A DNA stretch of 64,000 bases from Patescibacteria group bacterium (GCA_041650915.1 JBAZKE010000001.1:187284-251283); one strand, 5' to 3'. Positions 25,032 to 42,467 are shown, counted from the stretch's first letter. Notes: generated by a model from the sequence alone, not told the origin. A program made the numbers and translations.

Positions 25032-25054
25032 GGTGACGCATCTTTATCCGCCAG

Positions 25055-25580: not shown

Positions 25581-28500
25581 ATGGGTATAGAGAATAAAAA
25601 AAGTTTTCTCCGTGGATTTTCGGCAAGCCTCATCGTTGGCGCGTTTCTGCTGCTGCCGCTCTTTTTTGGCATGAGTAACCCGGTCCACGCGCAGGCTGGC
25701 GTTTCCGGCGAGCTCGGCGCAACATTCGGGCTCGGCACTGCCGACCTCATGTCAACCGTGATCAGCATAGTCCAGTGGTTTCTCGGCTTCCTCGGCCTCA
25801 TTGCCGTCATCATGATCCTGTACGGCGGATTCCTATGGATGACTGCCCGCGGTGATGTGGCGCGGATCGACAAGGCGAAGAAAGTCATCCAGCGGGCGAT
25901 TATTGGGCTCATTATCGTCCTGCTCTCGTGGTCTATCGTAACGTTTATATATAAGGTAGTTAGCGACGCGACAAGTACCCCGCCGCTGCCCGCACACTGC
26001 TCAGATGGCATCCAGAATTTCGATGAAACCGGCGTTGACTGCGGCGGCGTTGACTGCTTGCCGTGCGGGCATATCTTGCCGACCGACGATTTTGAGTGGG
26101 ATGAGAATGAGACATCCTTTGCATCAGGCGGAGACTATGCAACAGACGTAAACCGCTGCAGCCGCATCCAAGCGCTCTTCAACCACAATGTTGACCAGGC
26201 GAGCGTTGATGCGCTCTGGGCGCCTGACAATTCCGGTGAAATATTCGTTGAAGGCTTTACGCCGGTAGGCAGCGTCGAGTGGGTGACCTCCGGGAAGATG
26301 CTCACCTTCAAGCATGATGACGATCTGCTGGGATCGGATCTCGGGCCTGTCGGGTACCGCCTCTGGATGCCGAAAGCGGTTCGGGATACGGATGGATCCG
26401 GCATACTGCTCGAGACCATTTCTACTGGTGTTTCCGGCGAGGGCACCAATCCGCATGGCGGCGGCACGCCGAATGATGCGTTCTATTGGGATTTCCAGAC
26501 CGGCACCGAGATTGACGATGTCATGCCGACTATTACCGATACGTATCCAATATCTGATCTGGCGAGCCCGTGGTATCCGGACCAGAGTGTTGTCCGCGCT
26601 CCCGAAATCGAGATCAGTTTCAATGAGGCGATTGATGCAACGACGATCTATGGGGCGGGTGGGCACCCGATCGCGGGAAATTTTGTGCTCGAGGAGCTCG
26701 CGAGCTTCGGCGGTGCGGTCGTCGGAACGGTACCCGATGCAAATCTCGGGGTAGAGATGATGGCGCAGGGCTTCCGTATCCGGATGGTACCGCCAAATCT
26801 CCTCGAGTCCTGGACATGGTACCGGATCACGATTGATCATATCGAAGACCTCTGCGGCAATCCGATGCCAGGCCCATACGTGTGGGAGTTCCAGACGACC
26901 GACCTCGCACCGGGCGTTTCCGGGTACTACCCGACCGGTTCGAGCGAGTGCCCCGATGTTATTCCCACGATCGTATTCAATACGCAGATGTTCAGTGACC
27001 TTGTCCACATTGAAATAAACGGCTCAGACGGATCGCAATACATCGCTGAAATGCGCCCCTCTAATATTAATCCCGCATCCAATCCGAATTTTATACTTGG
27101 GACGCTGCCTGGCTCCCCGAATATGGGGTACCTGCAGGTGGCCGACCATGCCATGCCGGTTGATAATCGGTTCCGTGTTTTTGAATTCCATCCATCTGAT
27201 ATCGTTTATAATCCTGTCCCCTTGAGCACAAACACAACGTATACCGTCGATGTGACGACTGATAAGCTCATCGATGTTTCCACATACCTGTCGCAGAGCT
27301 GGTCGTTTACTACGGCCGATGCAGCTTCGTGCACCTGTGCGCCGTTTATCACGAGCATAAGCCCGAATGCCGGCCCCCGGGGAGAGTGCATCACGGTACA
27401 TGGGCCGTGCTTCCAGGGCACTCCCGCCAATCCCGCGTCGATTACCAGTTTTACTTTCGTTGATCCTTATGATGGTATCCCTGGCGTTACGACCGCAACG
27501 CCGGACGGTTCAGGGCCGACGTACGTCGCGACCACGCTTCCGCTCGCGTTCAACGACGGAGATTTTGCGCGGCCCCAGATCGAAATTACCTACGATCCGC
27601 CGTCTTCGTTCGGTACCGTGGCGAGCAGCAACGCGAGCGTGGATTACTACGTAGCGACGCCTGATACCGCAACCGGTCCGTGCCTGTTTGGTATTAATCC
27701 GTCATCGGGTTACCACGGAACCGGCGTTAGCCTGACGGGCACCCGCTTCAATCCGACGAGTTCGCTCAAGCGGGTGAATTTCACAGGCGATTTCCAGACC
27801 CTGACGAGCTGGTACGATGATTGGGCAACGACGACCGTACCGGGCGGCGCGGCGTACGGCATCAACCAGGTCAGTATTGAGAATGATGCCGGCCCGAGCA
27901 ATAAAGTTCCTTTTGAAGTGTCTACCATCCCTCCCAACGAGCCGGTCGTCATCAACCACTACCCGATCTGCCAGGACGTGTGCCCCACTGCGCAGGTCGG
28001 CGGTACCATCAGCCTCAACGTGACCGCCAGCATGCTGTACGGCCCGGCGAGTACTGTCCGGCTGTACGAGTGCACGGATGCTACCTGTGCTTCACTGACC
28101 TTCGTTCCGGCAGCTGACGTGGTGTTTACAACTTCTCTTATCGGGGGCAATACCGATTTCAGCATAAACCACAGCACGGGATGGGCGGTGGATACGAACT
28201 ACCGCGTAGTCCTTACGAACGCGATCCAGAGCAGCACGGGGGGTTACCTCTCAACCGTCAACTATACCGATCCGTTTTCCGGTGAGCTCGCGTACTCGTG
28301 GACCTTTAAGACGAAGCCCGATGCCGCAGGGTGCGTTATGGAGACCGTTGAAACAATTCCACCGACGGCCTCCGAGCCGGTTGGAGTGCATATTGATTAC
28401 GTAGCGAACGCGCGGACCGCACCGGACTCGTGCGATCCGTCTGGCCAAATCCTCAATGCAAATCTTTTCACCTGGACTTGGGCTGTTGACGATCCGCTCA

Positions 28501-31500
28501 GCCGTGCTCCAGTTCCGGCGTCGGTTGATGCGTCGGTTGCCATTCCGCCTAATCTTAATGTTGCGATCGCTACCACGGTCGAGCCGACAGGCACCGACCC
28601 GGTATTTATCGAGCCGACGGCAACGGACGGCGCGGTGACCGAAACCGGAAGCGGCGAGCTCAACGTAACGACCGATCCGCCGCCGGTGCCTCCATCGCCT
28701 GCAGTTGTCAACCATTATCCGACGTGCGGTGATGTCTGTCCAAACGGCCAGATTGGCGGCGCAATAAGCCTCAATGTTGCCGCGAGCATGGTGTACGGAG
28801 GCGGCAGCACGGTGCGGCTGTACGCATGCGCCGACGCTTCGTGTGATCCGGGTTCGCTCACGCCGGTTGCGCCCGGCGACGTGGTATTTAACGCAACGTA
28901 CGACGGCTCGTCCGTAACTAATTTTAGTATCAATTCCGCAACCACGTGGCCCGCTGACCAGAACTACCGGGTATTTTTATCCGGAGCGATCGCCGATGCG
29001 GTAAACGGAATGTTGTTATCGGGCCTCAACTGGACCGATCCGCTCGACGGTGTTTCGGGCTACACGTGGCAATTCAAGACAAAAGCTGGCGCGGGAGCAT
29101 GCTCGCTGGAATCTGTTGAAACAATTCCGCACGTGTTTTCATTGCCAGAGACGATGACCCATAATTACTACGCAAATGCCCGTTCGCTTCCGGACTCGTG
29201 CGATCCGGCGGGCCAGATCCTCGATCCAAATCCGCTCATATGGTCGTGGGATATACGCGATCCGCTCTCACGGGTGCCCGCAGTCGCCTCAGTCGACGCT
29301 TCGGCTGCCGTGCCCGCTAACCTCAACCACGCGGTTGCTACTGCAATCCACAGCACGGTAGCGGATCCCGTCTATGTACGGGCACAGGCGACAGATCCAG
29401 GAGCGCCGGTTACGCATGAGGGCGAAGGTGAGTTTACCATAACGGCAGACCCTCCGCCGATACCGCCCTCGCCGATGGTTGTGAACCACTACCCCACGTG
29501 CGGAGATGTATGCCCGAACGGCTTGGTCCGCGGCACCATTACCCTCGATGTGCTCGCGAGTTTGTCATACGCACCGGCAGGAACCGTCCGCTTGTACTCG
29601 TGTTCTGATCCCGCATGTGCACCGGGTACGATGACATTCGTCCCCGCAGCAGATATCAATTTCGTACCGACCGTCAACGGTGGCAATACTGATTTTGAGA
29701 TAAACCACAGCACCGGCTGGGCAGCGGATACGGGCTACCGCGTTTTTCTCGCCGCGGGGATCACTGATGGCGTTGAAACGCTCGCAAGCATCAATTATAC
29801 CGATCCGGCGGACAGCACTCCCGGCTACTCCTGGACGTTCAAAACAAAGCCTGGCGCTGGCGCGGTGTGCTCCCTCCAGTCCGTTGAGACCGTGCCGAGC
29901 AGCTTGATTCTTGCTGAGACTGAATCTTACAACTATTACGCAAATGCGCGTTCGCTACCAGACTCGTGCGATCCGGCAGGCCAGATCCTCGATCCGAATC
30001 CGCTCACGTGGGTTTGGGACGTCAGGGATCCGCTCCTCCGCGCACCGGTACCTGCCATAGCTGATGCGGTGCCGGCGGTTCCGCCGAATTTGAACCATGC
30101 AGTCACGACCGCGGTCGCCGGTACAGGTGCGAATCCAGTCTATATACGGGCACAGGCTACTGATCCTGGATCGGCTGTTACGCACGAGGATGAGGGCACA
30201 CTCAGCGTTTCGGCAGGGCTTCCCCCGGATCCCCAACCGCCGACCGTCATTGACCGGAACCCGCTCTGCAACGATGTCTGCCCGAACGGCTTGATCCGCG
30301 GCACGATAAGCCACGACGTTGCAGCGAGCATGGCGTACGGCTCCGGCAGTACGGTGCGGCTGTACTCCTGCTCAGACCCGAGCTGTGCCCCGGGAACTCT
30401 CACGATTGTGCCGGATGCCGACATTACCTTTACTGTGACGGTGAATGGCGGCAATACTGATTTTGAAATCAACCACGCGTCGGGGTGGACTCCTGATACG
30501 GGCTACCGCGTGTTTCTGTCGCAGGGAATCACGGATGGAGTACGGAATTTGGCGAATCCAAACTGGTCAGATCCGTTCGACGGCACCTCAGGCTACTCAT
30601 GGGTATTCAAGACAAAACCGGGCGCGGATGCATGCGTGCTTGAAACGGTGGACATGGTCCCATCGATCGCGAGCGAGCCTGCATCGGTAACTATCAGCTA
30701 CTACGCGAATGCCCGTTCACTCCCGGATTCGTGCGATCCCGCCGGCCAAATTATTGATCCCTATACGTTCACCTGGACATGGAATATCAATGATCCGCTC
30801 GCACGCGTGCCTATCGTTGCCTCTGTCGATGCGTCGACTGTCGTGCCGCCGAACTTGAACCACGCTCTCACAACTACGCTCGAGCCGACGGGAACCGACC
30901 CGGTCACCGTCGAAGCCAATGCGCAGGTCGGCGCACTCTCGAGGACGGGCAGCGGTGAGCTCAACATTACCACCGATCCGCCTCCTACTGACCCATATCC
31001 GACCGTTGTCCTTTGGTACCCCGAGTGCCAGGACGTGTGCCCCAATGCGCAGGTTGGCGGGCGGATAACCCTCGACGTGGGCGCCTCGATGTCGTATACC
31101 GCACAGAGCGATACGGTACGGCTCTATACTTGTTCTGATCCAACCTGCGGTCCCGGCACGATGACGTACGTCGGTCCCGGTATGGTAACGCTCACTGCGA
31201 GCTACATTGGCGGTAATACTGAGTTTGCCGTTAATGCACTTGCAAACTGGCCTGCCGATACGTACTACCGCGTGTTCCTTTCCCGCGATATCGTCGATGC
31301 AACGTATGGACATACGCTCGCCAGCCTCAACTGGTCAGACCCTTTTGACAGCACGCCGGGATACTCATGGACATTCAAGACAAAAGCAGGATCCGATCCC
31401 TGCGCACTCGAAACAGTCGAGACGCTTCCCCCGTACGCTTCAACGACGCTCGGTGTGAATGTCACATACCTAGCGAATGGCCGGACCTTGCCTGACTCCT

Positions 31501-34500
31501 GTGATGCAGCAGGCCAGATACTGAATCCGGCTGGCTTGTCCTGGACGTGGTCGTATAATGATCCCTTTGGCAGGCCAGGTTTGCCGCTTGCGACGGTTAT
31601 CCAGGACAGCCTCAATCATGCCCACGCGATCCCGGTTGCGCGGACAAATTTCCAGCCGGTGCAGGCAGTCGCGGGCGCGACGCAGGGCGGTCCGATTGTA
31701 TCTGGAGCCGGCAATCTTGATATACTCGACTGCACGGATAATACGTTCTGCCGCGACCACTGCTTTGCGCTTACCGGGGTGCCCAATAGCTCTACTTGTG
31801 ATCTCGCGACAGGCAGCTGCACGCCGGTTGTCACCTCTCTGGTCCAGAACCAAGGCCCGATTGATACCTCGTTCAGCGTCAACGGCTGCTACTTCGGCGC
31901 AACGAGGGATGATGGCGCGGTTATGTATTATACGGCCGCTCAACCCGGTGGAGTTGCAGCTGCCTTGCTCTGCGGTGATGTCGGCTGGTCCGACAACCAG
32001 ATCATTGCCAGCATGAGCCTCAATCCGGCTCTGTATAGCGCTGGAGATGTCGTCACGGTTTCACCGAGAACGGGAAGCATATACGGCGCCCTAAGCCCGA
32101 ATCCAGGGGATACGGAAGAATTCACCTTGAGCGATGAGTGTATCCCGGGAGTGAGCGTCCCATCCGGCGGCATGCCGATACTCTGCCAGGTTGTGCCAGG
32201 CACGGCTGCATTAGGGCAGGATATATCGCTCGATGGGTTTAATTTCGTTGGGGCGATATCCAGCGCCGCACAGTTTTATACTGGTTCCGGTGTGCCGCCC
32301 TATACGCCTGGAGTTGCCGGATCATTTGTCGCGGCTGTCCCGCCGTATGAGGATCGGTATTCAAATGTGACGGTTCCCGGAGCAGCAGTGAGCAGCGCTA
32401 CGCTCGGCGTGCGGATGCTTGTCGATAGCTGTCCATCCAATCCAGTTGGCTTTGGCGTGCGGTGCGACGACGATACTGACTGTACGGTGCCCGGATACCA
32501 GTGCTGTGCATTCGATCCGGGGCACGGCGAGAATGTTTGTTCCCTTGATGCACTGTGCAGCTCCGGCGGGCCTGGAGATCCGTGTACCGATGGCGCTGTC
32601 TGCCCGGTTGGCCCGTCGTGTATTGATCCCGCTAACTATTCATGCCTGACCGACGGTGGCGACTGTAACTGCTGCTGCGCTCCGGGGCAGGTGAGCACGA
32701 CCGGGCTCGATTGCGTGACAAACCAGGCTCCCTGTGATGGCGGCACCCGCGGGTTGTACTGCGGGTGCACGAGTGACGCTGACTGCGGTAATCCGGCAAC
32801 TATCGGCTGCTCTCCCGTGGCGCCGAACTGCTGCTACCAGCGTCCGCGCGTAGTAACCGCGCAGTCAACGCCGCTACCTGGCGCGCCAAATGTATGCCTC
32901 AACGCAGGGATGATCGTCGTATTCGATCAAGCAATGGATAACAGTACGCTTATAGCGGGTAACATTATTCTGCAGGATGTAACCGGGAGCACATCGAGAG
33001 CCATCACCGTCACTGGGATGGGGGACCGCGCCCTTGTGCATCCGGATGCGCTGCTAGAGTCAAACCACGTACATAGGATTGTCATACTCGGACAGCCCCT
33101 CGGGGGGGTTCGTTCTGCACGACAGATTGCCTTGGCCGGCGCGGGTTTAAACTATGATTATAATTCAGACGGTGTCCTCGACAGCTTCGCGTGGACGTTC
33201 ACGACCCGGTTGAACACGTGCGCTATTACTGGATACTATATGCGGGCAGGCTGGGCCACTGGATCGGATTTTGATCCGCGGGTAACTCCCGTCAGCTTCA
33301 ATTGCGCTCACGATACGTGCTTCAACGACCGCAATACAACACATCCAGGCAACAATATTCACGTCTATGCCTACCCGCTCGATGAGAACGGCAACTACGT
33401 TGCCGATTCAATCATTTCCTGGTCAGAATTTGATCCGTCGAATGCCCTGCTTTTGGAAGATCCGGTTTTTCCTCCTGATCCGCCGTCCCCGAATGGCATC
33501 AACCACTATCTGACTGCGCAGAACAGCACTGGCATGGTAACCGTTACTGTAACGGCAAACTCTCCGTCGTCCGGCACCTACAGTGAGAATTTTGAGGTCA
33601 ACGTCGACCTCTGTACCGCGCCGTGGCCTGATGTGTGGGCAGGAGATGACTACCCATTTGTGGATGATACCGGCAATCCCACCCACGAAACACAGTTTTC
33701 CGTGTCGTACTGCCGTGAACCGGGAGGGCTGCCCCTGCTCAATTCGCCGTCCGTTGCGATCATTGATGAGAATGTTCCGAGTGAGCCGGGGAGAGATGAG
33801 CTCCTTAAAGAATTTTTCTTCCTCAGGGCTGGCATAGCTGATGCGATCGGCATCCGGGTCATGGAGAATGAGGGCGGAAAATCGCCTCGCGACTGGTACT
33901 TTCAGCAGTTTGGGCCGTCCGCTCCTGAGCCGCAGGCGCTCACTATCGACGGGTATCCGGCAGTCCGGTCCGGCAGGACGGTGTACGTGACCGCGTGGAA
34001 TGTTGATCTCGGCACCGGTATCATATACCCGAACGTCTACCTCATGTCGTACAGCGACGGGGCATCTGCTGAGACGATTGAGATATACAACAGGATGCTC
34101 GCAAACTGGCGCTTTAATGCGAACCTCACCGCAACTGAAAAAGCGCAGCTTCAGCGCGATATGAAACGCGTGAGCGACCTGAGCGATATCTTCAACAAAC
34201 TCCTCGACTATAAGGCGGCGCATGGCACGTTTCCACTGCTCGAGGGGGGGACTTTTATCAACGGGGTCAGCACGTCGCGGTGGCCATCATGGCAGGAAAC
34301 ACTCGGCGCCGCAGCGGGGATTACGCTGCCGGTGGATCCGCTCAATAACCTGTCTCCAATCACCGCATGCCCGTCGCCGCCATTTGACCAGCAGACCTGC
34401 TGGGATGATGCCGGCAAAGTGTACGTTACCCCGGCCAGTTCACACATCTATTTGTACCGCGCCAGTTCGAGCGGGGACGTCGCGAATCTGTACGCGCGCC

Positions 34501-36749
34501 TTGAGCGTATCTGGTACGATGGCGGTGTAGACTTGTTCATGTGGGCCGGAGCGCCGGTCTTCAACCCGTGCGTTGGCATTCCCAATGCTACGTGCAATGC
34601 CTTCAACTACGCGCACCTCCTGTCGGGGAGCGCAAGCGACCATACGCCGCCGGTTTTCTTGTGGGCGCACGCGGATGGCTTCACGTTCCTTCCCGATGTC
34701 GGGCCGCCACCGCCGACCCTCCCGGGAGTCAATCCGCTGATTACAGCTTCGTTTATTGACGATATGGAGCTTGCGTATGCTGAGTTTTACATTGACGGGA
34801 TTCTCCGCCATACGTCACCGGTGGAAGCAGGCTTCTTCTACCAGTGGGATGGGTTTGTGCAGACAGATTTTTCCGAGCAGGTGCATAATTTTATGATCAG
34901 GGGCTACGATACTGCGGGCAACTATTCGGATGCGAGCGCGGACATCCAGATCACGCACAATTTCGGAGATACGACCCCGCCCTTTATACAGTTCATTAAC
35001 CCTCTCGATGGCACTACGGTATCGGGCACGGTTCAGGTCCGGGTAACGGGCAGTGATAACAGGCAGATCACGTCATTCCAGCTTGATGTGACTTGCACGG
35101 GCGGCCCTTCGTTCGGGCCCATACCGCCAGTTCCGAATCCGCATACGATTTCGTACAGTTGGGATACGACATCCCAGCCAAACGGCCCCTGCTCGCTCGA
35201 GGCGACGATCTATGACGGCACAAATCCGCCTGTCGTCGCAGCGGTTACCGTGAATATCGATAACCAGGATACGGTTGAGCCGGCCGTAACCCTGACGAGC
35301 GCCCCGGGAACGTGCGCTGCCGACGGTGCAGCCTGCAATATCAGCGTGCCGTGCGCGAACACGGTATGCGACGGCGGATCGAATGACCGCGCCGCCTGTT
35401 CCGGTCCGGCTGATTGCGATACGGGCATCCCGTGCACGCCAATCTGCGAACGTTCGGGTGTCGTTCCGGTCCAGGTAACGGCGACCGATAACCAGGCGGT
35501 CACGAGGGTTGATTTCCTTGTCGATGGCATTGTGCAGGACCAGGGAACGGAGATCGGGCCAAATACCTATGAGTGGCTATGGGATACGCGGATTTACTCG
35601 AACGGCGACCATACGCTCTCGGTGAATGCCTACGATGCTTATAGTAACAGCGGCGGTTTGAGCGTCCAGTACCGCCTGTGGAATGCCGAGCAGGATTCGG
35701 TCCCGCCAACCGTGTCTTTCGTTTCACCTCCGACCCCGGTTTACGGCTCGTCGGTCGATAATACGATAACGGTTGAAGTTGATGCTCTCGACAATCCGGG
35801 CGGTTCAGGCGTGCAAAGGGTTAACTTTTACCTCGATTACGTCTGGAAAGCTGCGGATGCGACAGCCGGGCCGTATTCATGGAACCTCGACACGCTTCCC
35901 ATCTCCGATGGCTGGCACAGAATCCAGGTTGATGCGGTCGATAACAATGGCAACCGCAGCGAGAGCATAGAAATACGGGTTGAGGTTCGCGGCACGGGGG
36001 GTCCGCTCATAACGTATGCGCTCGTGACGCCCTGCAGCGGCGGCCAGTTTACGCCGTTCAACTTTACGGCTGTCGTGACGGATCCGGATGGCGTGAGCAG
36101 GGTGGAAGCGATCATCCAGCAGCCGGATAATGTTCCGATTGACCGGTCTACCATGACTGATGCCGGCCTGGATACGTACATCGGATCTTGGAATTCCGGC
36201 ATCCACGAGGGGACATTCTTTGTTGATATTGAAGCCGAAGACGCGGCAGGGAATATTAGCTGGCTCGATAACATTGAGTGCACGGCAGTGCCCTGTGCCG
36301 TGAACGGAGATGCGTGTAGTGCCGCTTCGGACTGTTGCAGCGGTTACTGTGGCGGCGGCGGCATCTGTGCAGAGCCACCCGCCTGCCTGCCGAATGGGAA
36401 TGCATGTACGGCTAACGGGGATTGTTGCAGCAACTACTGCGATAGTGGGGGGTCGAACCAGTGTGAAGACCTGCCCTCACCCCCGACATGCCCTGACGGG
36501 AATTGTGATGTAGGCGAGGATCCGGATACATGCCCTGCTGATTGCGGGAGCAATTGGTCGGTGTACCTGTGCCATACTCAATTTGGGGAAGTACACGTGA
36601 TCAGCTCGTGGTGTGATACATCCGCAGCTTGCTCTAATCCCGGACCGCCACGGTGGGAGTGCGAAGCATCCGATCCGGCAAATCATGCGTGTCTCAATCC
36701 CGCAAGCCCCGTGGTGTGCTGCATGGTTGATGTAAACTGTGCAATATAG
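25581..36749 (+). CDS. Giant cell-surface protein (3722 aa) with signal peptide, VirB2/TrbC-like double-TM N-terminal anchor, tandem Cys-bearing beta-repeat modules, knottin-like Cys modules and Ig-like C-terminal domains
   Basis: Uninterrupted 11,169-nt ORF. N-terminus has a signal peptide (…PVHA|QAG) followed by two hydrophobic helices separated by a basic loop (…FLWMTARGDVARIDKAKKVIQRAIIGLIIVLL…). Five ~255-aa repeats each contain NHYPxCxDVCPNxxxGG…TVRLYxCxDxxC…GGNTDFxINH…YRVFL…GYSWxFKTK…YYANARSLPDSCDPAGQILDP. C-terminal CxxxxxxCxxxxxCCxxxCxxxxxC modules and Ig-like segments (PPTVSFVSPP…) follow. Confidence 0.8.
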   Translation: MGIENKKSFLRGFSASLIVGAFLLLPLFFGMSNPVHAQAGVSGELGATFGLGTADLMSTVISIVQWFLGFLGLIAVIMILYGGFLWMTARGDVARIDKAKKVIQRAIIGLIIVLLSWSIVTFIYKVVSDATSTPPLPAHCSDGIQNFDETGVDCGGVDCLPCGHILPTDDFEWDENETSFASGGDYATDVNRCSRIQALFNHNVDQASVDALWAPDNSGEIFVEGFTPVGSVEWVTSGKMLTFKHDDDLLGSDLGPVGYRLWMPKAVRDTDGSGILLETISTGVSGEGTNPHGGGTPNDAFYWDFQTGTEIDDVMPTITDTYPISDLASPWYPDQSVVRAPEIEISFNEAIDATTIYGAGGHPIAGNFVLEELASFGGAVVGTVPDANLGVEMMAQGFRIRMVPPNLLESWTWYRITIDHIEDLCGNPMPGPYVWEFQTTDLAPGVSGYYPTGSSECPDVIPTIVFNTQMFSDLVHIEINGSDGSQYIAEMRPSNINPASNPNFILGTLPGSPNMGYLQVADHAMPVDNRFRVFEFHPSDIVYNPVPLSTNTTYTVDVTTDKLIDVSTYLSQSWSFTTADAASCTCAPFITSISPNAGPRGECITVHGPCFQGTPANPASITSFTFVDPYDGIPGVTTATPDGSGPTYVATTLPLAFNDGDFARPQIEITYDPPSSFGTVASSNASVDYYVATPDTATGPCLFGINPSSGYHGTGVSLTGTRFNPTSSLKRVNFTGDFQTLTSWYDDWATTTVPGGAAYGINQVSIENDAGPSNKVPFEVSTIPPNEPVVINHYPICQDVCPTAQVGGTISLNVTASMLYGPASTVRLYECTDATCASLTFVPAADVVFTTSLIGGNTDFSINHSTGWAVDTNYRVVLTNAIQSSTGGYLSTVNYTDPFSGELAYSWTFKTKPDAAGCVMETVETIPPTASEPVGVHIDYVANARTAPDSCDPSGQILNANLFTWTWAVDDPLSRAPVPASVDASVAIPPNLNVAIATTVEPTGTDPVFIEPTATDGAVTETGSGELNVTTDPPPVPPSPAVVNHYPTCGDVCPNGQIGGAISLNVAASMVYGGGSTVRLYACADASCDPGSLTPVAPGDVVFNATYDGSSVTNFSINSATTWPADQNYRVFLSGAIADAVNGMLLSGLNWTDPLDGVSGYTWQFKTKAGAGACSLESVETIPHVFSLPETMTHNYYANARSLPDSCDPAGQILDPNPLIWSWDIRDPLSRVPAVASVDASAAVPANLNHAVATAIHSTVADPVYVRAQATDPGAPVTHEGEGEFTITADPPPIPPSPMVVNHYPTCGDVCPNGLVRGTITLDVLASLSYAPAGTVRLYSCSDPACAPGTMTFVPAADINFVPTVNGGNTDFEINHSTGWAADTGYRVFLAAGITDGVETLASINYTDPADSTPGYSWTFKTKPGAGAVCSLQSVETVPSSLILAETESYNYYANARSLPDSCDPAGQILDPNPLTWVWDVRDPLLRAPVPAIADAVPAVPPNLNHAVTTAVAGTGANPVYIRAQATDPGSAVTHEDEGTLSVSAGLPPDPQPPTVIDRNPLCNDVCPNGLIRGTISHDVAASMAYGSGSTVRLYSCSDPSCAPGTLTIVPDADITFTVTVNGGNTDFEINHASGWTPDTGYRVFLSQGITDGVRNLANPNWSDPFDGTSGYSWVFKTKPGADACVLETVDMVPSIASEPASVTISYYANARSLPDSCDPAGQIIDPYTFTWTWNINDPLARVPIVASVDASTVVPPNLNHALTTTLEPTGTDPVTVEANAQVGALSRTGSGELNITTDPPPTDPYPTVVLWYPECQDVCPNAQVGGRITLDVGASMSYTAQSDTVRLYTCSDPTCGPGTMTYVGPGMVTLTASYIGGNTEFAVNALANWPADTYYRVFLSRDIVDATYGHTLASLNWSDPFDSTPGYSWTFKTKAGSDPCALETVETLPPYASTTLGVNVTYLANGRTLPDSCDAAGQILNPAGLSWTWSYNDPFGRPGLPLATVIQDSLNHAHAIPVARTNFQPVQAVAGATQGGPIVSGAGNLDILDCTDNTFCRDHCFALTGVPNSSTCDLATGSCTPVVTSLVQNQGPIDTSFSVNGCYFGATRDDGAVMYYTAAQPGGVAAALLCGDVGWSDNQIIASMSLNPALYSAGDVVTVSPRTGSIYGALSPNPGDTEEFTLSDECIPGVSVPSGGMPILCQVVPGTAALGQDISLDGFNFVGAISSAAQFYTGSGVPPYTPGVAGSFVAAVPPYEDRYSNVTVPGAAVSSATLGVRMLVDSCPSNPVGFGVRCDDDTDCTVPGYQCCAFDPGHGENVCSLDALCSSGGPGDPCTDGAVCPVGPSCIDPANYSCLTDGGDCNCCCAPGQVSTTGLDCVTNQAPCDGGTRGLYCGCTSDADCGNPATIGCSPVAPNCCYQRPRVVTAQSTPLPGAPNVCLNAGMIVVFDQAMDNSTLIAGNIILQDVTGSTSRAITVTGMGDRALVHPDALLESNHVHRIVILGQPLGGVRSARQIALAGAGLNYDYNSDGVLDSFAWTFTTRLNTCAITGYYMRAGWATGSDFDPRVTPVSFNCAHDTCFNDRNTTHPGNNIHVYAYPLDENGNYVADSIISWSEFDPSNALLLEDPVFPPDPPSPNGINHYLTAQNSTGMVTVTVTANSPSSGTYSENFEVNVDLCTAPWPDVWAGDDYPFVDDTGNPTHETQFSVSYCREPGGLPLLNSPSVAIIDENVPSEPGRDELLKEFFFLRAGIADAIGIRVMENEGGKSPRDWYFQQFGPSAPEPQALTIDGYPAVRSGRTVYVTAWNVDLGTGIIYPNVYLMSYSDGASAETIEIYNRMLANWRFNANLTATEKAQLQRDMKRVSDLSDIFNKLLDYKAAHGTFPLLEGGTFINGVSTSRWPSWQETLGAAAGITLPVDPLNNLSPITACPSPPFDQQTCWDDAGKVYVTPASSHIYLYRASSSGDVANLYARLERIWYDGGVDLFMWAGAPVFNPCVGIPNATCNAFNYAHLLSGSASDHTPPVFLWAHADGFTFLPDVGPPPPTLPGVNPLITASFIDDMELAYAEFYIDGILRHTSPVEAGFFYQWDGFVQTDFSEQVHNFMIRGYDTAGNYSDASADIQITHNFGDTTPPFIQFINPLDGTTVSGTVQVRVTGSDNRQITSFQLDVTCTGGPSFGPIPPVPNPHTISYSWDTTSQPNGPCSLEATIYDGTNPPVVAAVTVNIDNQDTVEPAVTLTSAPGTCAADGAACNISVPCANTVCDGGSNDRAACSGPADCDTGIPCTPICERSGVVPVQVTATDNQAVTRVDFLVDGIVQDQGTEIGPNTYEWLWDTRIYSNGDHTLSVNAYDAYSNSGGLSVQYRLWNAEQDSVPPTVSFVSPPTPVYGSSVDNTITVEVDALDNPGGSGVQRVNFYLDYVWKAADATAGPYSWNLDTLPISDGWHRIQVDAVDNNGNRSESIEIRVEVRGTGGPLITYALVTPCSGGQFTPFNFTAVVTDPDGVSRVEAIIQQPDNVPIDRSTMTDAGLDTYIGSWNSGIHEGTFFVDIEAEDAAGNISWLDNIECTAVPCAVNGDACSAASDCCSGYCGGGGICAEPPACLPNGNACTANGDCCSNYCDSGGSNQCEDLPSPPTCPDGNCDVGEDPDTCPADCGSNWSVYLCHTQFGEVHVISSWCDTSAACSNPGPPRWECEASDPANHACLNPASPVVCCMVDVNCAI
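27930..31760 (+). repeat. Intragenic tandem array of 5 units of ~765 bp (252-258 aa)
   Basis: Anchor motif aaccactaccc/aaccattatcc (NHYP) recurs near 27954, 28710, 29484, 30250 and 31010. Unit lengths are 756-774 bp and units are diverged (~50-65% aa identity). Confidence 0.7.
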
Positions 36750-36847: not shown

Positions 36848-38479
36848 ATGAACAAAAAAAATAAGCTGATTGGGGTTGCGGCACTGGGGGCATGCCTGGT
36901 ACTCTTTGGCTACGGGGCGTATGCCGCATCCGAAGTCGGGTCTGAACCGACGTTCGAAGTCGATACATCACTGCCCTACGGCCCCGAATTGACCGGAGGT
37001 TTTACCATCTCTCCGCCGCAGGTTGATCCTGGCCAGCCGGTCGAGTTTTCCGCGGGTGTCTACGATCAGTCAGGCGTAAAATCCGTGTACGTCGACATTG
37101 TTTCTCCGGCGACTGACACAACGCTCAAGTCAATAGAACTGCTCGACGACGGTTCGAATGATGACGGTACGGCCGGCAACAATGTTTTTGGCAGAGGATG
37201 GGATACGAGCGGGATGAGCGTCGGTGTCTATACGGTTCGGCTGAGAATGGCTGACAAGCTGGATAACCTCAATACGCAGGATGCGGGGTACATCGCACTC
37301 GGTGAAGGCGGGTGCCTGCACGACGATGAATGCACGTCACCCGAACGCTGCTGCTACGGAGTATGCGTAAGCAATGCATGCTCGACGGATGCCGACTGTG
37401 ACGATGCAGATGATGCCACGCTCGATCGCTGCAATACGGTTGATGTCTGCCCGGCGTACTGTTCAAATAACGTATTGCCATGCGTGGGCGGAGACGGCGT
37501 CTGCCCCCCGGGATGCGGTGAAGATGCGTGGGAGTGCGTCGGCGGTGACTATAATGGTATTGCGTGCGATCCCGCTGACAGCGAGAGCTGTGGCGGTCCA
37601 TCATCGGGGAGCGTCTGCACGTTGATTGAGGCTGATTCGGACTGTACGGTAGATACGACGGCACCCGTCGTGTCTGTCCAGACCCCGGGAGATTCAGAAA
37701 CAATTGATGGAAATACCTACACTGAGTATGAGGTTACCGTTACGGCATCTGATCCGGAATCGAATATCGCGCAGGTTCGCTTTTTGCTCGATGGAACTGA
37801 GCAGTCAGTATGGCTCGGCGACCCAGCTCCCGGAACGGGGCTGTATACCTGGATTATGCCTGTCGGGCCGCTCACTGAGGGGGCTCACACTATCATTGCC
37901 GAAGCAGAGAATGGCATCGGGACACTCAGCGAGGACGGGGTATCCTTTATCTACACTGCTCCTACGTCGAGCGTTGCCCCGACAGTGAGCATTACTGCCC
38001 CTGCGAACGGCGCTACGGTTACGGGAAGCACGACCGTTGATGTGACGGCGACGGATGACGGCCTCGTCAATGAGGTTAGCTTTTACCACTGCGTTGTCGG
38101 CCTGCAGGATTCTGATTCGAGCTTTACGCCCGCCTCGACGGTTAATGTAACGCTCAACTCCTGGAATGCGACAAGCACCGCAACCGCCCTGCTCGAAAAT
38201 TACATTATGCCGTTTGCCGCGTTGCAGCAGGACGTGAAGAAGTTCAAGCTGCCGTTCGTACCGGTTGCGCATGCGGCAGATGATTCGAACTGTACCACGA
38301 CAACAACGACTCGCAACTATACGCAGTGCATCTATGCCATGGCCATTGACGACGACAGCCTTGTCGGTACCAGTGCGTACGTTTACGTGACCACTCCGAT
38401 TACGACAACAACGACAAGCTGCACGACCACAAATCGCATGGACACTCCGTCTAGTGCGTCCAGCAGCTCGGCAATCTAG
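36848..38479 (+). CDS. Secreted surface protein, paralogous in module content to the C-terminal part of the upstream giant protein
   Basis: 543 aa. Signal peptide (LGACLVLFGYGAYAAS), a knottin-like Cys module (CLHDDECTSPERCCYGVCVSNAC…) and Ig-like domains (TAPVVSVQTPGDSE…, APTVSITAPANGATVTGS…). RBS AAAGGAG upstream of the start. Confidence 0.7.
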   Translation: MNKKNKLIGVAALGACLVLFGYGAYAASEVGSEPTFEVDTSLPYGPELTGGFTISPPQVDPGQPVEFSAGVYDQSGVKSVYVDIVSPATDTTLKSIELLDDGSNDDGTAGNNVFGRGWDTSGMSVGVYTVRLRMADKLDNLNTQDAGYIALGEGGCLHDDECTSPERCCYGVCVSNACSTDADCDDADDATLDRCNTVDVCPAYCSNNVLPCVGGDGVCPPGCGEDAWECVGGDYNGIACDPADSESCGGPSSGSVCTLIEADSDCTVDTTAPVVSVQTPGDSETIDGNTYTEYEVTVTASDPESNIAQVRFLLDGTEQSVWLGDPAPGTGLYTWIMPVGPLTEGAHTIIAEAENGIGTLSEDGVSFIYTAPTSSVAPTVSITAPANGATVTGSTTVDVTATDDGLVNEVSFYHCVVGLQDSDSSFTPASTVNVTLNSWNATSTATALLENYIMPFAALQQDVKKFKLPFVPVAHAADDSNCTTTTTTRNYTQCIYAMAIDDDSLVGTSAYVYVTTPITTTTTSCTTTNRMDTPSSASSSSAI

Positions 38480-38510: not shown

Positions 38511-39158
38511 ATGACTGATAAAGATACAAAACAAGTCGAAGATATTTTCGCTGAAGCTGATTCTGGGGGCACTGCACGCAGTGCCCCCCAGAAAAAAGCG
38601 CCGGTAAAACCAATTGCACAGCCGGCACCGGCCGCACGGGAAGTGAGAAATATCCAGCCGACAGCCAATCGTCCGCAGTACCGGAAGACGAAGATTATGC
38701 TAATAGTGCTTTTGAGCGCTGGGGCGCTCATCGTCGTCGGCGGCGGTGCAGTGCTCGTGACAAGCGGGGTATTCTCCGGTGAAAATGCGAACAGCACTCC
38801 CGCAACGAACAGTGCGGCAACGGACGGGTCCGCACCGACGGTTAATGTACCGACGAACAGCTCCGGGACGGTACGGCTGCAGAAAGTAGATTTGAGTTTG
38901 CAGCCGGTTGATACGGATAGTGACGGACTCACCGATGCAGAGGAAGCTGAGCTCGGCACGGATATCCGCACGGTTGACACGGATGGCGACGGCCTCTATG
39001 ACCGTGAGGAGGTTCGGGTATACGGTACGGATCCCCTGCAAACCGATACAGATCAGGATGGCATTGTTGACGGGACCGAGGTTGCAAACGGGTATGATCC
39101 TTCCGGACCGGGGATGCTGCTCGATTTGGATGCTGCAATTGAGAGGCTTCAATCTTAA
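38511..39158 (+). CDS. Single-pass membrane protein with thrombospondin-type-3/dockerin-like Ca2+-binding repeats
   Basis: 215 aa. Cytoplasmic basic N-terminus, one TM helix (IMLIVLLSAGALIVVGGGAVLV), a Thr/Asn-rich linker, then DTDSDGLTDAEE / DTDGDGLYDREE / DTDQDGIVDGTE repeats. Confidence 0.65.
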   Translation: MTDKDTKQVEDIFAEADSGGTARSAPQKKAPVKPIAQPAPAAREVRNIQPTANRPQYRKTKIMLIVLLSAGALIVVGGGAVLVTSGVFSGENANSTPATNSAATDGSAPTVNVPTNSSGTVRLQKVDLSLQPVDTDSDGLTDAEEAELGTDIRTVDTDGDGLYDREEVRVYGTDPLQTDTDQDGIVDGTEVANGYDPSGPGMLLDLDAAIERLQS

Positions 39159-39181
39159 TATGCTTTATTAATACCTTTGGT

Positions 39182-40318
39182 ATGCCAGACAATCCACAGC
39201 AAGGGCAGACGGGCAGTCCAGCGCCGAGCCAGCGTAAAGCGCGCATCCATACAATGCCGGATAAGTTTTACATTGATGATGCCGGCGGCGGTGGCAGCAA
39301 AAATACATTCTTAATCATTGGAATAATCATTCTCGTCGTTGCGATCCTTGGGGCTGCAACCTTTTTTCTGCTCCAGCGGTACGGAGGCGGTGAAGATAAT
39401 GCGAACAGCGCAACGAATGCCACGACAAACGGTGTGAGCAATATAAATACAGGCAATGTAAACGCAGCGACGAATAGTACCGTCAATACGCTGGCTAACG
39501 CCAATGCTGCGCTCAATACCAATACTTCTAACGGCAATGTCAATGCCGCGTTGAATGTCAATTCCATTACCAACAATCTATTCCCGAACAGCAATACGGC
39601 AACGAATACCGCCTCCAATGTCAATGCAATCGTTTCGAGCAGGGATTCTGACTCCGATAGCCTCACCGATATTGAAGAAGCTCTTTTTGGAACCAATTTA
39701 TCGCTATCAGATACTGACGGCGATGGCTACCAGGACGGCCAGGAGGTAACGAGCGGGTACGATCCGAACGGGACATCTGCGCTCGATGAGAACAGCGCCG
39801 TGTACCGGTATACGGACGGCGTCGGCAGCTATTCAATCCTGTATCCAAACGCGTGGGATGTTGCAACGGATCCGCAGAGCGCATACGGTAAAATGTTCAG
39901 CAGCACCAACGGTGAATTCATCGAGGTTTCGATTGAAGAAAACCCGGCGAAGTTGGGCGCACGTGACTGGTACCTGACGAAGTCGCCCGGCATTGATTCA
40001 ACTCAGATTTTGTCCGTCTCAACGTGGGACGGCAAGCTCGTCGGGGTGAAGAGCCCAGACGGCTCCACCGTATACTATACGAAGGGAGATAACGCGTACG
40101 TGATATCGTATAACATCAATATCCTCTCGGAAGCAAACTTCCTTACGACGTTCGAAATGATGTACCAGAGTTTCGTAGTAATTGAATCAGCGCTCACCAA
40201 TACGAATACGAACACGTCAAATACAAATTCAAATACCAATGTAAATGTTAATTCCAATGGAAATTCAAATACCAATACAAATACAAATAGCAACACGAAC
40301 AGCACGCCTCATCTGTAA
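39182..40318 (+). CDS. Single-pass membrane protein with Asn-rich low-complexity segments and a DxDxDG Ca2+-binding motif
   Basis: 378 aa. TM helix (FLIIGIIILVVAILGAATFFLL), Asn/Thr-rich tracts, DSDSDSLTDIEEALFGTN…DTDGDGYQDGQE, a globular segment, and a C-terminal (N-T/S-N)n tail. The stop abuts the ybeY start. Confidence 0.65.
   Translation: MPDNPQQGQTGSPAPSQRKARIHTMPDKFYIDDAGGGGSKNTFLIIGIIILVVAILGAATFFLLQRYGGGEDNANSATNATTNGVSNINTGNVNAATNSTVNTLANANAALNTNTSNGNVNAALNVNSITNNLFPNSNTATNTASNVNAIVSSRDSDSDSLTDIEEALFGTNLSLSDTDGDGYQDGQEVTSGYDPNGTSALDENSAVYRYTDGVGSYSILYPNAWDVATDPQSAYGKMFSSTNGEFIEVSIEENPAKLGARDWYLTKSPGIDSTQILSVSTWDGKLVGVKSPDGSTVYYTKGDNAYVISYNINILSEANFLTTFEMMYQSFVVIESALTNTNTNTSNTNSNTNVNVNSNGNSNTNTNTNSNTNSTPHL
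40195..40313 (+). repeat. Imperfect AAY-ACN microsatellite-like coding repeat (Asn-Thr/Ser)n
   Basis: aatacgaatacgaacacgtcaaatacaaattcaaataccaatgtaaatgttaattccaatggaaattcaaataccaatacaaatacaaatagcaacacgaacagc. Confidence 0.5.
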
Positions 40319-42457: not shown

Positions 42458-42467
42458 GGGCCAATAC

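What the first reader, a model, noticed from the sequence alone, without database searches (positions are those of the whole stretch)
27930..31760. Five diverged ~765-bp tandem repeats inside the giant gene
The periodicity is visible directly in the DNA (aaccactaccc-type anchors every 756-774 bp) and in the recurrence of related antisense ORFs. The units are only ~50-65% identical, suggesting ancient duplication with selection for diversification. Each unit keeps four Cys (NHYPxCxDVCP…LYxCxDxxC) and a CDP motif (LPDSCDPAGQI). Arrays like this are recombination hot-spots and frequently collapse in short-read assemblies.
Basis: seen in the sequence. Interest (0 to 1): 0.55.

Follow-up and report, generated by a model that had tools for sequence, protein, structure and literature searches.

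The report
Five Ig-module repeats in surface giant
The five ~765-bp repeats are real: they are five old, in-frame copies of a two-domain immunoglobulin-like module that lengthen the outside part of a 3,722-residue membrane-anchored surface protein of an uncultured Patescibacteria (CPR) bacterium, which is an ordinary way for giant surface proteins to grow.

Summary
Window 27918-31745 holds five head-to-tail units of 756-774 bp. They are 52-63% identical in DNA and 48-62% in protein, and lie inside one ORF (25581-36749, 3722 aa).

Each unit has a Pro-rich linker followed by two Ig-like beta-sandwiches (AF2 pLDDT 93). It has six invariant Cys, not four plus one.

The protein has a signal peptide and a VirB2-like two-helix anchor (Pfam T4SS_pilin). 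The remaining ~3,590 residues are predicted to be extracellular.

The module marks a family of at least 390 clusters of giant proteins; the relatives located in named genomes are all Patescibacteria. The gene sits at a conserved position (hisS…yqeY-GIANT-TSP3-TSP3-ybeY-dagK-ftsA-ftsZ). The syntenic orthologue in the nearest genome has one unit, and other relatives have 1-4. The window's five units are monophyletic, so this is a lineage-specific tandem expansion.

- The duplication is ancient (dS is saturated).
- dN/dS of 0.10-0.26 indicates purifying selection, not diversifying selection.
- The longest shared word is 19 nt, and a second assembly gives the same gene sequence, so the array is neither a recombination substrate nor at risk of assembly collapse.
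- The antisense ORFs are shadow ORFs.

The most likely role is a disulfide-stabilised stalk extender, possibly a multivalent binder. Interest is low to moderate.

The parts
25581..36749 (+). Giant gene, 3722 aa. In NCBI as MFA5134324.1, 'Ig-like domain-containing protein [Patescibacteria group bacterium]'.
   Evidence: Single ORF. Pfam hits to T4SS_pilin, Big_5, TIG and Big_7. Exact match in the public collection. Syntenic orthologues in other genomes.
25581..25694 (+). Signal peptide (about aa 1-38: basic n-region, hydrophobic core, VHA/QA).
   Evidence: Hydropathy segment 9-35. The cleavage site was read from the sequence by eye and is an inference.
25749..25949 (+). VirB2-like two-helix membrane anchor (aa 57-123), with a basic loop between the helices.
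   Evidence: Pfam PF18895 T4SS_pilin, 37.4-40.1 bits against a cut-off of 26.6. The only hydrophobic segments in the protein are 9-35, 56-91 and 101-129. 125 of the top 150 relatives share this N-terminus.
27918..28673 (+). Unit 1 (aa 780-1031): Pro-rich linker plus Ig-like domain 1 (weakly Big_5-like) plus Ig-like domain 2.
   Evidence: Big_5 scores 15.4 bits, below the cut-off.
28674..29447 (+). Unit 2 (aa 1032-1289). This is the unit that was modelled.
   Evidence: AF2 with a 26-sequence alignment: pLDDT 93.0, pTM 0.86, two beta-sandwiches covering residues 11-136 and 147-257. Foldseek probability 1.0 to two-Ig chains.
29448..30218 (+). Unit 3 (aa 1290-1546). Closest to unit 2 (62% aa identity).
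30219..30977 (+). Unit 4 (aa 1547-1799).
   Evidence: Big_5 scores 18.9 bits, below the cut-off.
30978..31745 (+). Unit 5 (aa 1800-2055). Most diverged (48-50% to the others) and colinear with the C-terminal flank of the orthologue.
29172..29228 (+). Most conserved stretch of the unit: the loop ANARSLPDSCDPAGQILDP. Its equivalents start at 28404, 29940, 30705 and 31473.
   Evidence: Mean pairwise identity is 0.82 in a region that is not a strand. Repeat family D3 has five copies. The loop is conserved as PDxC..GQ.LN in relatives.
32877..33230 (+). Distant lone relative of unit domain 1 (aa 2433-2550). It is not a sixth unit.
   Evidence: The family profile hits positions 15-137 only, at 32 bits. 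Pfam Big_5, 27.7 bits.
35706..35930 (+). Best of four C-terminal Big_7 Ig domains (aa 3376-3450).
28251..28715 (-). Antisense shadow ORF. It is not a gene. Others of the same kind are at 29955-30314, 30717-31313 and 31470-31943.
   Evidence: All are in the same antisense frame and are bounded by sense TCA or CTA codons.
36848..38479 (+). Downstream secreted 543-aa Cys-rich Big_7 protein. It is absent at this position in the orthologous locus L040.
38511..40318 (+). Two membrane-anchored TSP3-repeat proteins (38511-39158 and 39182-40318). They are conserved partners downstream of the giant gene.
   Evidence: Pfam TSP3_bac. Synteny across the fetched loci.
41204..43691 (+). ftsA and ftsZ, which mark the conserved neighbourhood.

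Best explanation
The repeats are five copies of a ~255-residue protein module. Each module has a Pro-rich linker (DPPPxPPxP), a first Ig-like beta-sandwich distantly related to Big_5/SbsA-type domains, and a second Ig-like beta-sandwich. Six conserved cysteines are spread over both domains. The modules lie in the extracellular part of a giant surface protein of a Patescibacteria (CPR) bacterium. The protein is exported by a signal peptide and held in the membrane by an N-terminal VirB2-like hairpin, so everything after residue ~130 is outside the cell. The gene is a conserved, syntenic component of these genomes. The ancestor of this lineage had one module at this position. In-frame tandem duplications raised that to five long ago, and all five copies have since been kept under purifying selection. 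The inferred function is that each module is a rigid, disulfide-stabilised 'double bead'. Four extra modules add 8 Ig domains plus 4 proline linkers to the stalk, roughly 30-40 nm at ~4 nm per Ig domain. This pushes the distal C-terminal domains further from the small cell towards a host or substrate surface. What is shown: the repeats, the fold, the family, the synteny, the copy-number difference and the selection regime. What is inferred: the topology, the disulfides, and the spacer or adhesion role.
For: The fold comes from AF2 (pLDDT 93, pTM 0.86, two all-beta domains). Foldseek against the PDB gives 1,226 hits at E<=1e-3; the top ones are scFv, Fab and diabody chains, titin I65-I70, S-layer SbsC 2ra1 and LigA 8gyr. 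Pfam gives weak Big_5 hits on the first half of three units. For topology, there are only three hydrophobic segments, all in the first 130 aa, and the protein has 120 Cys; T4SS_pilin scores above its cut-off. For the family, an exhaustive profile search finds 390 clusters at E<=1e-3, with proteins of about 0.2-6.2 kaa (median 2,790 aa). 125 of the top 150 have the same N-terminus. The 19 relatives found in named genomes are all from uncultured MAGs: 14 are labelled Patescibacteria or candidate phyla within it (Uhrbacteria, Buchananbacteria, Falkowbacteria) and the other five carry Raymondbacteria or 'Gammaproteobacteria' labels. For synteny, the order hisS…GIANT-TSP3-TSP3-ybeY-dagK-ftsA-ftsZ, or the part of it a locus reaches, is seen in every one of the ~25 distinct fetched loci that extends far enough. 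P0002 in GCA_964549245.1 sits in the same gene order. Its FtsA is 85% and its FtsZ 78% identical to the window's, but its giant protein is only ~38% identical and carries ONE unit. That unit is colinear both with U1 and its N-flank and with U5 and its C-flank. Copy number among the top 150 relatives is 1 (20), 2 (70), 3 (51), 4 (6) and 5 (the window only); the longest tandem run elsewhere is 4. The five units are monophyletic (100% NJ bootstrap) and sister to P0002's unit (98%). Each unit's best matches among 273 unit instances are the other four units. For selection, dN/dS is 0.10-0.26 with dS saturated. From the literature, giant membrane proteins of CPR are thought to form surface fibres for host attachment (PMC8080830), and an MdbA-like disulfide oxidoreductase family is enriched in CPR (PMC6744442).
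Against: There is no experimental datum on this family. The spacer role is an analogy with other tandem-Ig surface proteins. The best-conserved part of the unit is a loop (PDSCDPAGQI, identity 0.82) rather than the strands, which could indicate a binding or metal site and so favour a binding role. Strands are hardly more conserved than loops (0.54 vs 0.51). The model coordinates could not be read, so unit length, rigidity and disulfide pairing are not measured. The nearest relative is already distant (~38%), so the timing and number of duplication events are only roughly bounded.
Confidence: 0.6

Rival explanations
1. Multivalent binding array. Each unit is an independent ligand-binding module (for a host glycan, protein or metal) that uses the conserved disulfide-tethered loop PDSCDPAGQI. 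Five copies raise avidity rather than length.
For: The loop is the most conserved segment among the units (0.82). It is also conserved in distant relatives as PDxC..GQ.LN. Purifying selection acts on all five copies. Ig-like domains of Lig and intimin-type proteins do bind ligands (established knowledge; LigA appears among the fold hits).
Against: The conserved residues are mostly of the structural kind (Cys, Trp, Tyr, Pro, Gly). The loop Cys co-varies with a Cys of domain 1 (C3-C6, Fisher p 8e-22), which suggests an inter-domain staple rather than a pocket. No known binding family matches.
Confidence: 0.25
2. Surface-lattice (S-layer-like) building blocks. The units make lateral contacts that form the ordered outer layer seen on ultra-small bacteria.
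For: There is Big_5/SbsA-type similarity, and SbsC (2ra1) gives the best TM-score normalised to the query (0.32) of the 50 listed Foldseek hits, though it ranks only 30th by E-value. In the fetched Patescibacteria loci the gene occupies one conserved position next to ftsA/ftsZ, as expected of a basic envelope component. S-layer proteins have been predicted in Patescibacteria (bioRxiv 10.1101/2024.05.28.596244).
Against: Gene length varies from about 2.1 to 4.2 kaa and unit number from 1 to 5 between orthologues. That is hard to reconcile with a fixed lattice. A 2-TM anchor and a 3,600-residue ectodomain are atypical for S-layer proteins. The TM-scores are low.
Confidence: 0.1
3. One reading: a diversifying, recombination-prone cassette array that generates variation through unit shuffling or copy-number change, or as a DGR target.
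For: Copy number differs between species. Surface proteins of host-associated bacteria often vary.
Against: dN/dS is 0.10-0.26. No shared word exceeds 19 nt. There is no near-identical template/variable repeat pair. None of the 46 larger window ORFs scanned against Pfam matches a reverse-transcriptase family. Two assemblies encode the identical protein. The protein is a singleton at the 90% cluster level, so no variants were seen.
Confidence: 0.03
4. Assembly artefact: a mis-joined or over-expanded repeat.
For: None beyond the general risk that repeats pose in metagenome-assembled genomes.
Against: The units differ at ~40% of positions, so reads place uniquely. The reading frame is intact across all junctions for 11,169 nt. 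A separately produced Logan contig agrees over 17,170 nt with no mismatch and one single-base gap, and its copy of the gene translates to the identical protein.
Confidence: 0.01

Closest known systems
Tandem bacterial-Ig extender regions of giant adhesins (Salmonella SiiE, Marinomonas MpIBP, Pseudomonas LapA; from established knowledge)
   Same: These are long extracellular proteins in which head-to-tail Ig-like beta-sandwich domains act as a length-setting stalk between a cell anchor and distal domains. Copy number differs between relatives.
   Different: Those proteins are T1SS substrates with C-terminal RTX signals, are retained in an outer membrane, are stiffened by Ca2+, and their repeats are often near-identical. 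The window protein has a signal peptide and an N-terminal 2-TM VirB2-like anchor, and Pfam gave no RTX match. Its repeat is a two-domain, six-Cys unit, and the units are only ~50-60% identical.
Pfam Big_5 (PF13205) / SbsA-SbsC S-layer Ig-like domains
   Same: The first half of the unit gives weak Big_5 hits. Other parts of the same protein pass the Big_5 threshold. SbsC is among the fold matches.
   Different: The units score 13.8-18.9 bits against a cut-off of 23.6, and two units give no hit at all. The Cys pattern and the obligatory second domain are not Big_5 features.
Leptospira Lig proteins and intimin/invasin (Big_2/Big_1 tandem arrays)
   Same: These are beads-on-a-string Ig-like arrays on a cell surface. 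LigA 8gyr is among the Foldseek hits. The sequence pattern of the unit's second domain (V.V.P…Y.A.A…W.W…A.V…L.V) resembles Big_2 by eye.
   Different: There is no Pfam Big_2 hit at E<=1. The anchoring and the organisms differ.
Giant membrane proteins of CPR bacteria (e.g. Vampirococcus lugosii, PMC8080830)
   Same: These are CPR proteins of 1.4-4.2 kaa with a predicted membrane location. They are proposed to form the fibrous surface and to mediate host attachment.
   Different: That paper lists other domain types (WD40, PKD, saposin). Homology with this family was not tested, and that lineage (Absconditabacteria) is different.
VirB2/TrbC-type pilins of Patescibacteria T4SS (PF18895; PMC12102498)
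   Same: The N-terminal 57-123 matches T4SS_pilin above the cut-off. Such domains are widespread in Patescibacteria.
   Different: The described pilins are small proteins near virB4, often in arrays. Here the domain is fused to a 3,600-residue ectodomain, and none of the 46 larger window ORFs scanned against Pfam gave a T4SS component match.

Membership tests
Ig-like beta-sandwich tandem-domain proteins (fold level) | Each repeat folds as an Ig-like beta-sandwich. | tested here: met
   AF2 gives pLDDT 93.0 and pTM 0.86, with two all-beta domains. Foldseek against the PDB gives probability 1.0 to two-Ig chains, titin, SbsC and LigA. A marginal sequence-profile hit to a TCR mu Ig domain has E 0.002.
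Pfam Big_5 (PF13205) | Score at or above the gathering threshold of 23.6 bits. | tested here: not met
   The units score 15.4, none, 13.8, 18.9 and none. The whole protein passes (112.6 bits) because of other domains at aa 335-439 and ~2423-2507.
Pfam Big_2 (PF02368) | Any Pfam match to the second half of the unit. | tested here: not met
   No Big_2 hit at E<=1 for any unit.
Pfam T4SS_pilin (PF18895), N-terminal anchor | Score at or above 26.6 bits, and two hydrophobic helices around a basic loop. | tested here: met
   37.4-40.1 bits at aa 57-123. Hydropathy segments at 56-91 and 101-129.
Functional VirB2 pilin of a T4SS | Genomic association with virB4 or other T4SS genes, and assembly into a pilus. 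| tested here: not met
   No T4SS component was found among the 46 larger window ORFs scanned. Only the 64-kb window was examined. Pilus assembly cannot be tested with these tools.
Patescibacteria syntenic giant surface-protein family (defined here) | A pilin-like N-terminus, at least one double-Ig six-Cys unit, and the position hisS…GIANT-TSP3-TSP3-ybeY-dagK-ftsA-ftsZ. | tested here: met
RTX/T1SS giant adhesins | C-terminal RTX nonapeptide repeats or a T1SS signal. | tested here: not met
   No RTX or HemolysinCabind hit in Pfam at E<=1. An N-terminal signal peptide is present instead.
DGR target / hypervariable cassette | A near-identical template/variable repeat pair and a reverse transcriptase nearby. 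| tested here: not met
   No such repeat in 24000-41000. None of the 46 larger window ORFs scanned against Pfam matches a reverse-transcriptase family.
Recombinogenic / assembly-collapsing tandem repeat | Stretches of identity between units longer than ~25 nt (RecA) or longer than the assembly k-mer. | tested here: not met
   The longest shared words are 11-19 nt. Two assemblies encode the identical protein.
Disulfide-stabilised extracellular domain | Conserved Cys paired in space. | tested here: inconclusive
   Six Cys are invariant in the five units. Across 273 unit instances, co-occurrence favours C2-C5 (p 4e-13; 8 instances keep only these two) and C3-C6 (p 8e-22), and argues against C5-C6. 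Some apparent 'losses' are alignment shifts, and the model coordinates could not be read.

The most novel reading that the evidence does not exclude
The array is the extreme case of a length-tuning mechanism in an undescribed core surface organelle of Patescibacteria. This would be a single-copy giant fibre, always encoded between yqeY and the TSP3/ybeY/ftsA/ftsZ block, held in the membrane (or even polymerised) through a VirB2-like pilin domain. It would be built from double-Ig units stapled across domains by disulfides (C22-C143, C52-C176). The number of units would set how far the cell reaches to its host.
Probability: 0.2. Interest if true: 0.55.

Novelty: new member of a known kind. Interest (0 to 1): 0.3.

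Why it matters
As a repeat array this is ordinary. Tandem Ig-like domains are the standard way giant bacterial surface proteins gain length, and nothing here points to programmed variation. Its value is descriptive in three ways. First, it defines a ~255-residue double-Ig, six-Cys module that no Pfam or NCBIfam model covers, yet which occurs in at least 390 protein clusters. Second, it shows that these giant proteins are positional orthologues in a conserved neighbourhood next to ftsA/ftsZ in the fetched Patescibacteria loci. Third, it gives a clean 1-to-5 natural expansion between two syntenic genes. For organisms whose biology depends on attaching to other cells and which cannot yet be grown alone, a conserved surface fibre of tunable length is a reasonable candidate for host contact. 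It would be a concrete target for cryo-ET, metaproteomics and recombinant structural work.

Tried and rejected
- **Tandem Repeats Finder:** it found nothing in the array, because of its period limit of 500 and the divergence of the units.
- **Word-indexed protein search:** it failed three times. The unit profile gave no hit. The whole protein timed out. The N-terminal 650 aa returned only matches to a ~25-residue Cys-rich motif in Saprospiraceae T9SS proteins, and not even the query protein itself. The exhaustive representative search was what revealed the family.
- **PDB sequence searches:** the unit and the 5-sequence profile found nothing meaningful. The region aa 2651-3330 also found nothing.
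- **First AF2 run:** with only the five units as the alignment, the second domain was unresolved (pLDDT 52). It was superseded by the 26-sequence run.
- **Locus searches:** The search for related loci rejected the diverse alignment. The genome and metagenome scans found only distant relatives (at most 31% identity by best-segment tblastn; partial matches reach 37%), so no close strain was available for copy-number polymorphism.
- **DGR or hypervariation idea:** rejected.
- **Gene conversion between units:** the single 57-nt patch of 91% identity between U2 and U3 lies in the most conserved peptide, and no run exceeds 19 nt.
- **Gene fission:** the idea that the downstream 543-aa Big_7 gene is a split-off tail of the giant gene is rejected. 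It has no similarity to the window protein and only weak similarity to P0002.
- **C143-C176 disulfide:** my initial guess of an intradomain C143-C176 bond is not supported by co-occurrence (25 discordant instances).

Full report

Yes. The window holds one ORF of 11,169 nt (25581-36749, + strand, 3722 aa). Anchor motifs recur in its translation five times: N-H-Y-P-x-C-x-D-V-C-P, R-L-Y-x-C-x-D-x-x-C and P-D-S-C-D. DNA autocorrelation over 27000-33000 peaks at lag 768 (0.366, against a background of 0.257 ± 0.0125), with harmonics at 1533 and 2301. The repeat finder reports six direct-repeat families spaced 756-774 nt apart.

I set the units at:

| Unit | Window coordinates |
|---|---|
| U1 | 27918-28673 |
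| U2 | 28674-29447 |
| U3 | 29448-30218 |
| U4 | 30219-30977 |
| U5 | 30978-31745 |

A profile of the units re-finds exactly five full copies (E 1e-127 to 1e-140). It also finds one distant lone relative of the first domain at aa 2433-2550. Pairwise identity is 48-62% in protein and 52-63% in DNA.

- Six Cys are invariant per unit, not four plus one.
- The DNA 'anchor' AACCACTACCC is exact in two units and within two mismatches in a third.
- TRF did not see the array.

**2. What the unit is**

Pfam gives only sub-threshold Big_5 hits on the first half of three units, and nothing on the second half. NCBIfam gives nothing, and PDB sequence searches give nothing useful.

An exhaustive profile search of 1.84 billion representative proteins found 390 clusters at E<=1e-3. 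The listed top 150 range from about 0.2 to 6.2 kaa, with a median of 2,790 aa. I aligned the five units with 21 units from relatives (A2). With that alignment AlphaFold2 gave a confident model: pLDDT 93.0 and pTM 0.86. It shows a short Pro-rich N-terminal linker followed by two all-beta domains, at residues ~11-136 and ~147-257.

Foldseek against the PDB returns 1,226 hits at E<=1e-3. The top hits are chains with two Ig domains (scFv, diabody, Fab). Also present are titin I65-I70, the S-layer protein SbsC (2ra1, the best query-normalised TM-score among the 50 listed hits, 0.32) and Leptospira LigA. So each 'repeat' is a pair of Ig-like sandwiches.

Units are joined by DPPPxPPSP-type linkers. 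Conservation among the five units is about the same in strands (0.54) and elsewhere (0.51). The best-conserved segment is the loop SLPDSCDPAGQI of domain 2 (0.82).

**3. What the protein is and where it sits**

- *Anchor.* The N-terminus has a signal-peptide-like segment (aa 9-35) and two further hydrophobic helices (56-91, 101-129). These match Pfam T4SS_pilin above the cut-off. They also match, below the cut-off, a mycoplasma ICE pilin-like family.
- *Topology.* No other hydrophobic segment exists in the protein. The basic loop between the helices implies, by the positive-inside rule, that the remaining ~3,590 residues are outside the cell. This is an inference.
- *Ectodomain.* It is acidic and very poor in Lys (0.7%), and it carries 120 Cys. 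Besides the array it contains Big_5, TIG and four Big_7 domains, plus Cys-rich segments.
- *Identity.* The exact protein is in NCBI as MFA5134324.1, 'Ig-like domain-containing protein [Patescibacteria group bacterium]'. It is a singleton at 90% identity.
- *Genome.* The window is a typical Patescibacteria chromosome segment. It carries parAB, topA, dprA, mfd, pilM, a T4P ATPase, der, lytR, signal peptidase I, hisS, ftsA, ftsZ, nrdR, a ribonucleotide reductase (Pfam Ribonuc_red large-subunit domains), split comEC and others.

**4. Relatives and history**

125 of the top 150 relatives share the pilin-like N-terminus. A scan of GTDB species genomes found 19 relatives, all in uncultured MAGs. Fourteen are labelled Patescibacteria or candidate phyla within it (Uhrbacteria, Buchananbacteria, Falkowbacteria). 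The other five carry Raymondbacteria or 'Gammaproteobacteria' labels. The JGI metagenome scan added only distant relatives.

The neighbourhood is conserved. In every one of the ~25 distinct loci fetched that extends far enough, the visible part of this gene order is kept: hisS … pilin-N giant gene – TSP3 protein – TSP3 protein – ybeY – dagK – ftsA – ftsZ.

The closest relative is P0002 (3568 aa, GCA_964549245.1). It lies in the same order: S26 peptidase, hisS, HIT, S21, yqeY, GIANT, TSP3, TSP3, a further 398-aa ORF with no family match, ybeY, dagK, ftsA, ftsZ, nrdR. Its FtsA is 85%, its FtsZ 78% and its HisRS 65% identical to the window's. Its giant protein is only ~37-39% identical and has a single unit. 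P0002 1-1006 aligns with window 1-1029 (N-flank plus U1). P0002 767-1894 aligns with window 1807-2924 (U5 plus C-flank).

With the broader family profile, unit counts among the 150 best relatives are:

| Units per protein | Number of relatives |
|---|---|
| 0 | 2 |
| 1 | 20 |
| 2 | 70 |
| 3 | 51 |
| 4 | 6 |
| 5 | 1 (the window) |

The longest tandem run elsewhere is 4. ORFs read downstream from the pilin-like N-terminus in the fetched loci hold 0-4 units and span about 0.2-4.2 kaa; the shortest, unit-free ones look like split or truncated genes.

In an NJ tree the five window units form a clade (100% bootstrap) that is sister to the P0002 unit (98%). The branching order is U5, U1, U4, (U2, U3). 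Among 273 unit instances, each window unit's best matches are the other four (47-60%), then P0002 (37-44%), then everything else at 35% or less. The array is therefore a lineage-specific 1-to-5 tandem expansion. It occurred after the split from the P0002 lineage but long ago.

**5. Selection, recombination, assembly**

- *Selection.* Nei-Gojobori estimates give pN 0.25-0.37 and pS 0.63-0.80. dS is saturated (two pairs are beyond correction), and dN/dS is 0.10-0.26. This is purifying selection; the ratios are if anything overestimates. Site-level positive selection in loops cannot be excluded with these data.
- *Recombination.* The longest exact word shared by any two units is 11-19 nt. That is below what RecA-dependent recombination needs (established knowledge) and below common assembly k-mers.
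- *Assembly.* A Logan contig from run SRR8542065 agrees with the window over 17,170 nt with no mismatch and one single-base gap, and its copy of the gene translates to the identical protein.
- *DGR.* No DGR-type near-identical repeat pair is present, and none of the 46 larger ORFs scanned matches a reverse-transcriptase family.
- *Antisense ORFs.* The ORFs at 28251-28715, 29955-30314, 30717-31313 and 31470-31943 share one frame. Stops in that frame require the sense codons TTA, CTA or TCA, which are depleted (48 of 3722). Each ORF is bounded by exactly such codons. They are shadows of the sense repeat.

**6. Cysteines**

Across 273 unit instances, 147 keep all six Cys and 95 lack only the first. 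Presence and absence are most tightly linked for C3-C6 (p 8e-22) and C2-C5 (p 4e-13). Eight degenerate copies retain only C2 and C5. C1 never occurs without C4. C5-C6 is discordant in 25 instances.

This tentatively suggests the pairs C22-C143, C52-C176 and C18-C57. The first two would staple domain 1 to the linker and to domain 2. That would explain both the high pTM and the invariance of the PDSCDP loop. Some apparent losses are alignment shifts, and I could not read the model coordinates, so this remains a prediction. CPR genomes are enriched in an MdbA-like oxidoreductase that could form such bonds (PMC6744442).

**7. Mechanism**

The best-supported reading is that the array is a stalk extender. 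It consists of ten Ig-like domains and five proline linkers in series, between the membrane-proximal Big_5/TIG region and the distal Cys-rich and Big_7 region. At ~4 nm per Ig domain (established knowledge from titin and bacterial Ig arrays), the four extra units add roughly 30-40 nm relative to the one-unit orthologue.

Giant membrane proteins have been proposed to form the fibrous, adhesive surface of a CPR predator (PMC8080830). Variation in unit number between orthologues fits length tuning.

The rivals are:
- A multivalent binding array that uses the conserved loop (0.25).
- An S-layer-like lattice component (0.1).
- An assembly artefact (0.01).

**8. Comparison with known systems and verdict**

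The array works like the tandem-Ig extender regions of giant adhesins such as SiiE, MpIBP, LapA and the Lig proteins. It is not a member of those families. It has no RTX/T1SS features, no Big_2 hit, and only sub-threshold Big_5 hits. Its anchor is a VirB2-like hairpin rather than an outer-membrane or cell-wall anchor.

The double-Ig six-Cys unit has no curated model, and the family has no experimental characterisation that I could find.

The finding is thus a correct observation of an ordinary phenomenon, domain amplification in a giant surface protein, in an under-described CPR family. I rate it a new member of a known kind, with interest 0.3.

Noticed in passing
window 22161-43691; loci L002-L040: The giant gene is a positional orthologue across Patescibacteria. 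The order signal peptidase I - hisS - HIT - S21 - yqeY - GIANT - TSP3 - TSP3 - ybeY - dagK - ftsA - ftsZ - nrdR, or the part of it a locus reaches, recurs in ~25 distinct loci. The length of the ORF read from the pilin-like N-terminus varies widely between them; those ORFs that carry at least one unit span about 1.7-4.2 kaa.
   Followed up: partly
window 25995-26075 (aa 139-165 of the giant protein): A short Cys-rich module (CSDGIQNFDETGVDCGGVDCLPCG) is 44-83% identical to segments of T9SS-sorted metalloproteases (Peptidase_M43) from Saprospiraceae. It was the only part of the N-terminal region that the word-indexed search could match.
   Followed up: no
window ~36350-36746 (C-terminal ~130 aa of the giant protein): Two copies of a knot-like Cys motif are present (C..NG..C....DCCS.YC…C). 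They are followed by CPDGNCDVGEDPDTCPADCG and a Cys-rich tail. The only family signal is a faint Toxin_27 hit (E 0.32).
   Followed up: no
window 25971-36746 (ectodomain): The composition is unusual: Lys 0.7%, Asp 7.7%, Cys 3.3% (120 Cys in the whole protein). It is a strongly acidic, Lys-poor extracellular protein.
   Followed up: no
window 36848-38479: A secreted 543-aa Cys-rich Big_7 protein lies between the giant gene and the TSP3 genes. No gene occupies this position in the orthologous locus L040, and it is not a split-off piece of the giant gene.
   Followed up: partly
window 40217-40300: A 6/12/18-nt repeat (CAAATA-type) encodes an Asn/Thr/Ser-rich low-complexity tail (…NTNSNTNVNVNSNGNSNTNTNTNSNTN…) at the C-terminus of the TSP3 membrane protein 39182-40318.
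   Followed up: no
window 43988-48738: A cobalamin-related cluster: nrdR, a ribonucleotide reductase (44494-46785; Pfam Ribonuc_red large-subunit domains plus ATP-cone), a BtuR/CobO corrinoid adenosyltransferase (46887-47432), then a cobalamin riboswitch (47405-47607, 63.6 bits) upstream of a DUF6580 membrane protein (47818-48738). The DUF6580 protein may be a corrinoid transporter candidate.
   Followed up: no
window 56719-59107: ComEC appears split into two adjacent ORFs: Competence plus DUF4131 (56719-58245) and the metallo-beta-lactamase domain (58247-59107). dprA (10605-11777), pilM (15306-16400) and a T2SSE/PilT-like ATPase (16410-17483) are also in the window.
   Followed up: no
window 1382-1924 and 22002-22187: tRNA clusters: two tRNA-Met(CAT) and tRNA-Leu(CAA) on the minus strand. 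tRNA-Val(CAC) and tRNA-Val(GAC) lie in tandem just upstream of the signal peptidase gene, and the second of them overlaps the listed start of that ORF (22161).
   Followed up: no
tool behaviour: The word-indexed protein search did not return the query protein itself, although the exact sequence is in the collection. Its negative results for this family are therefore uninformative.
   Followed up: yes
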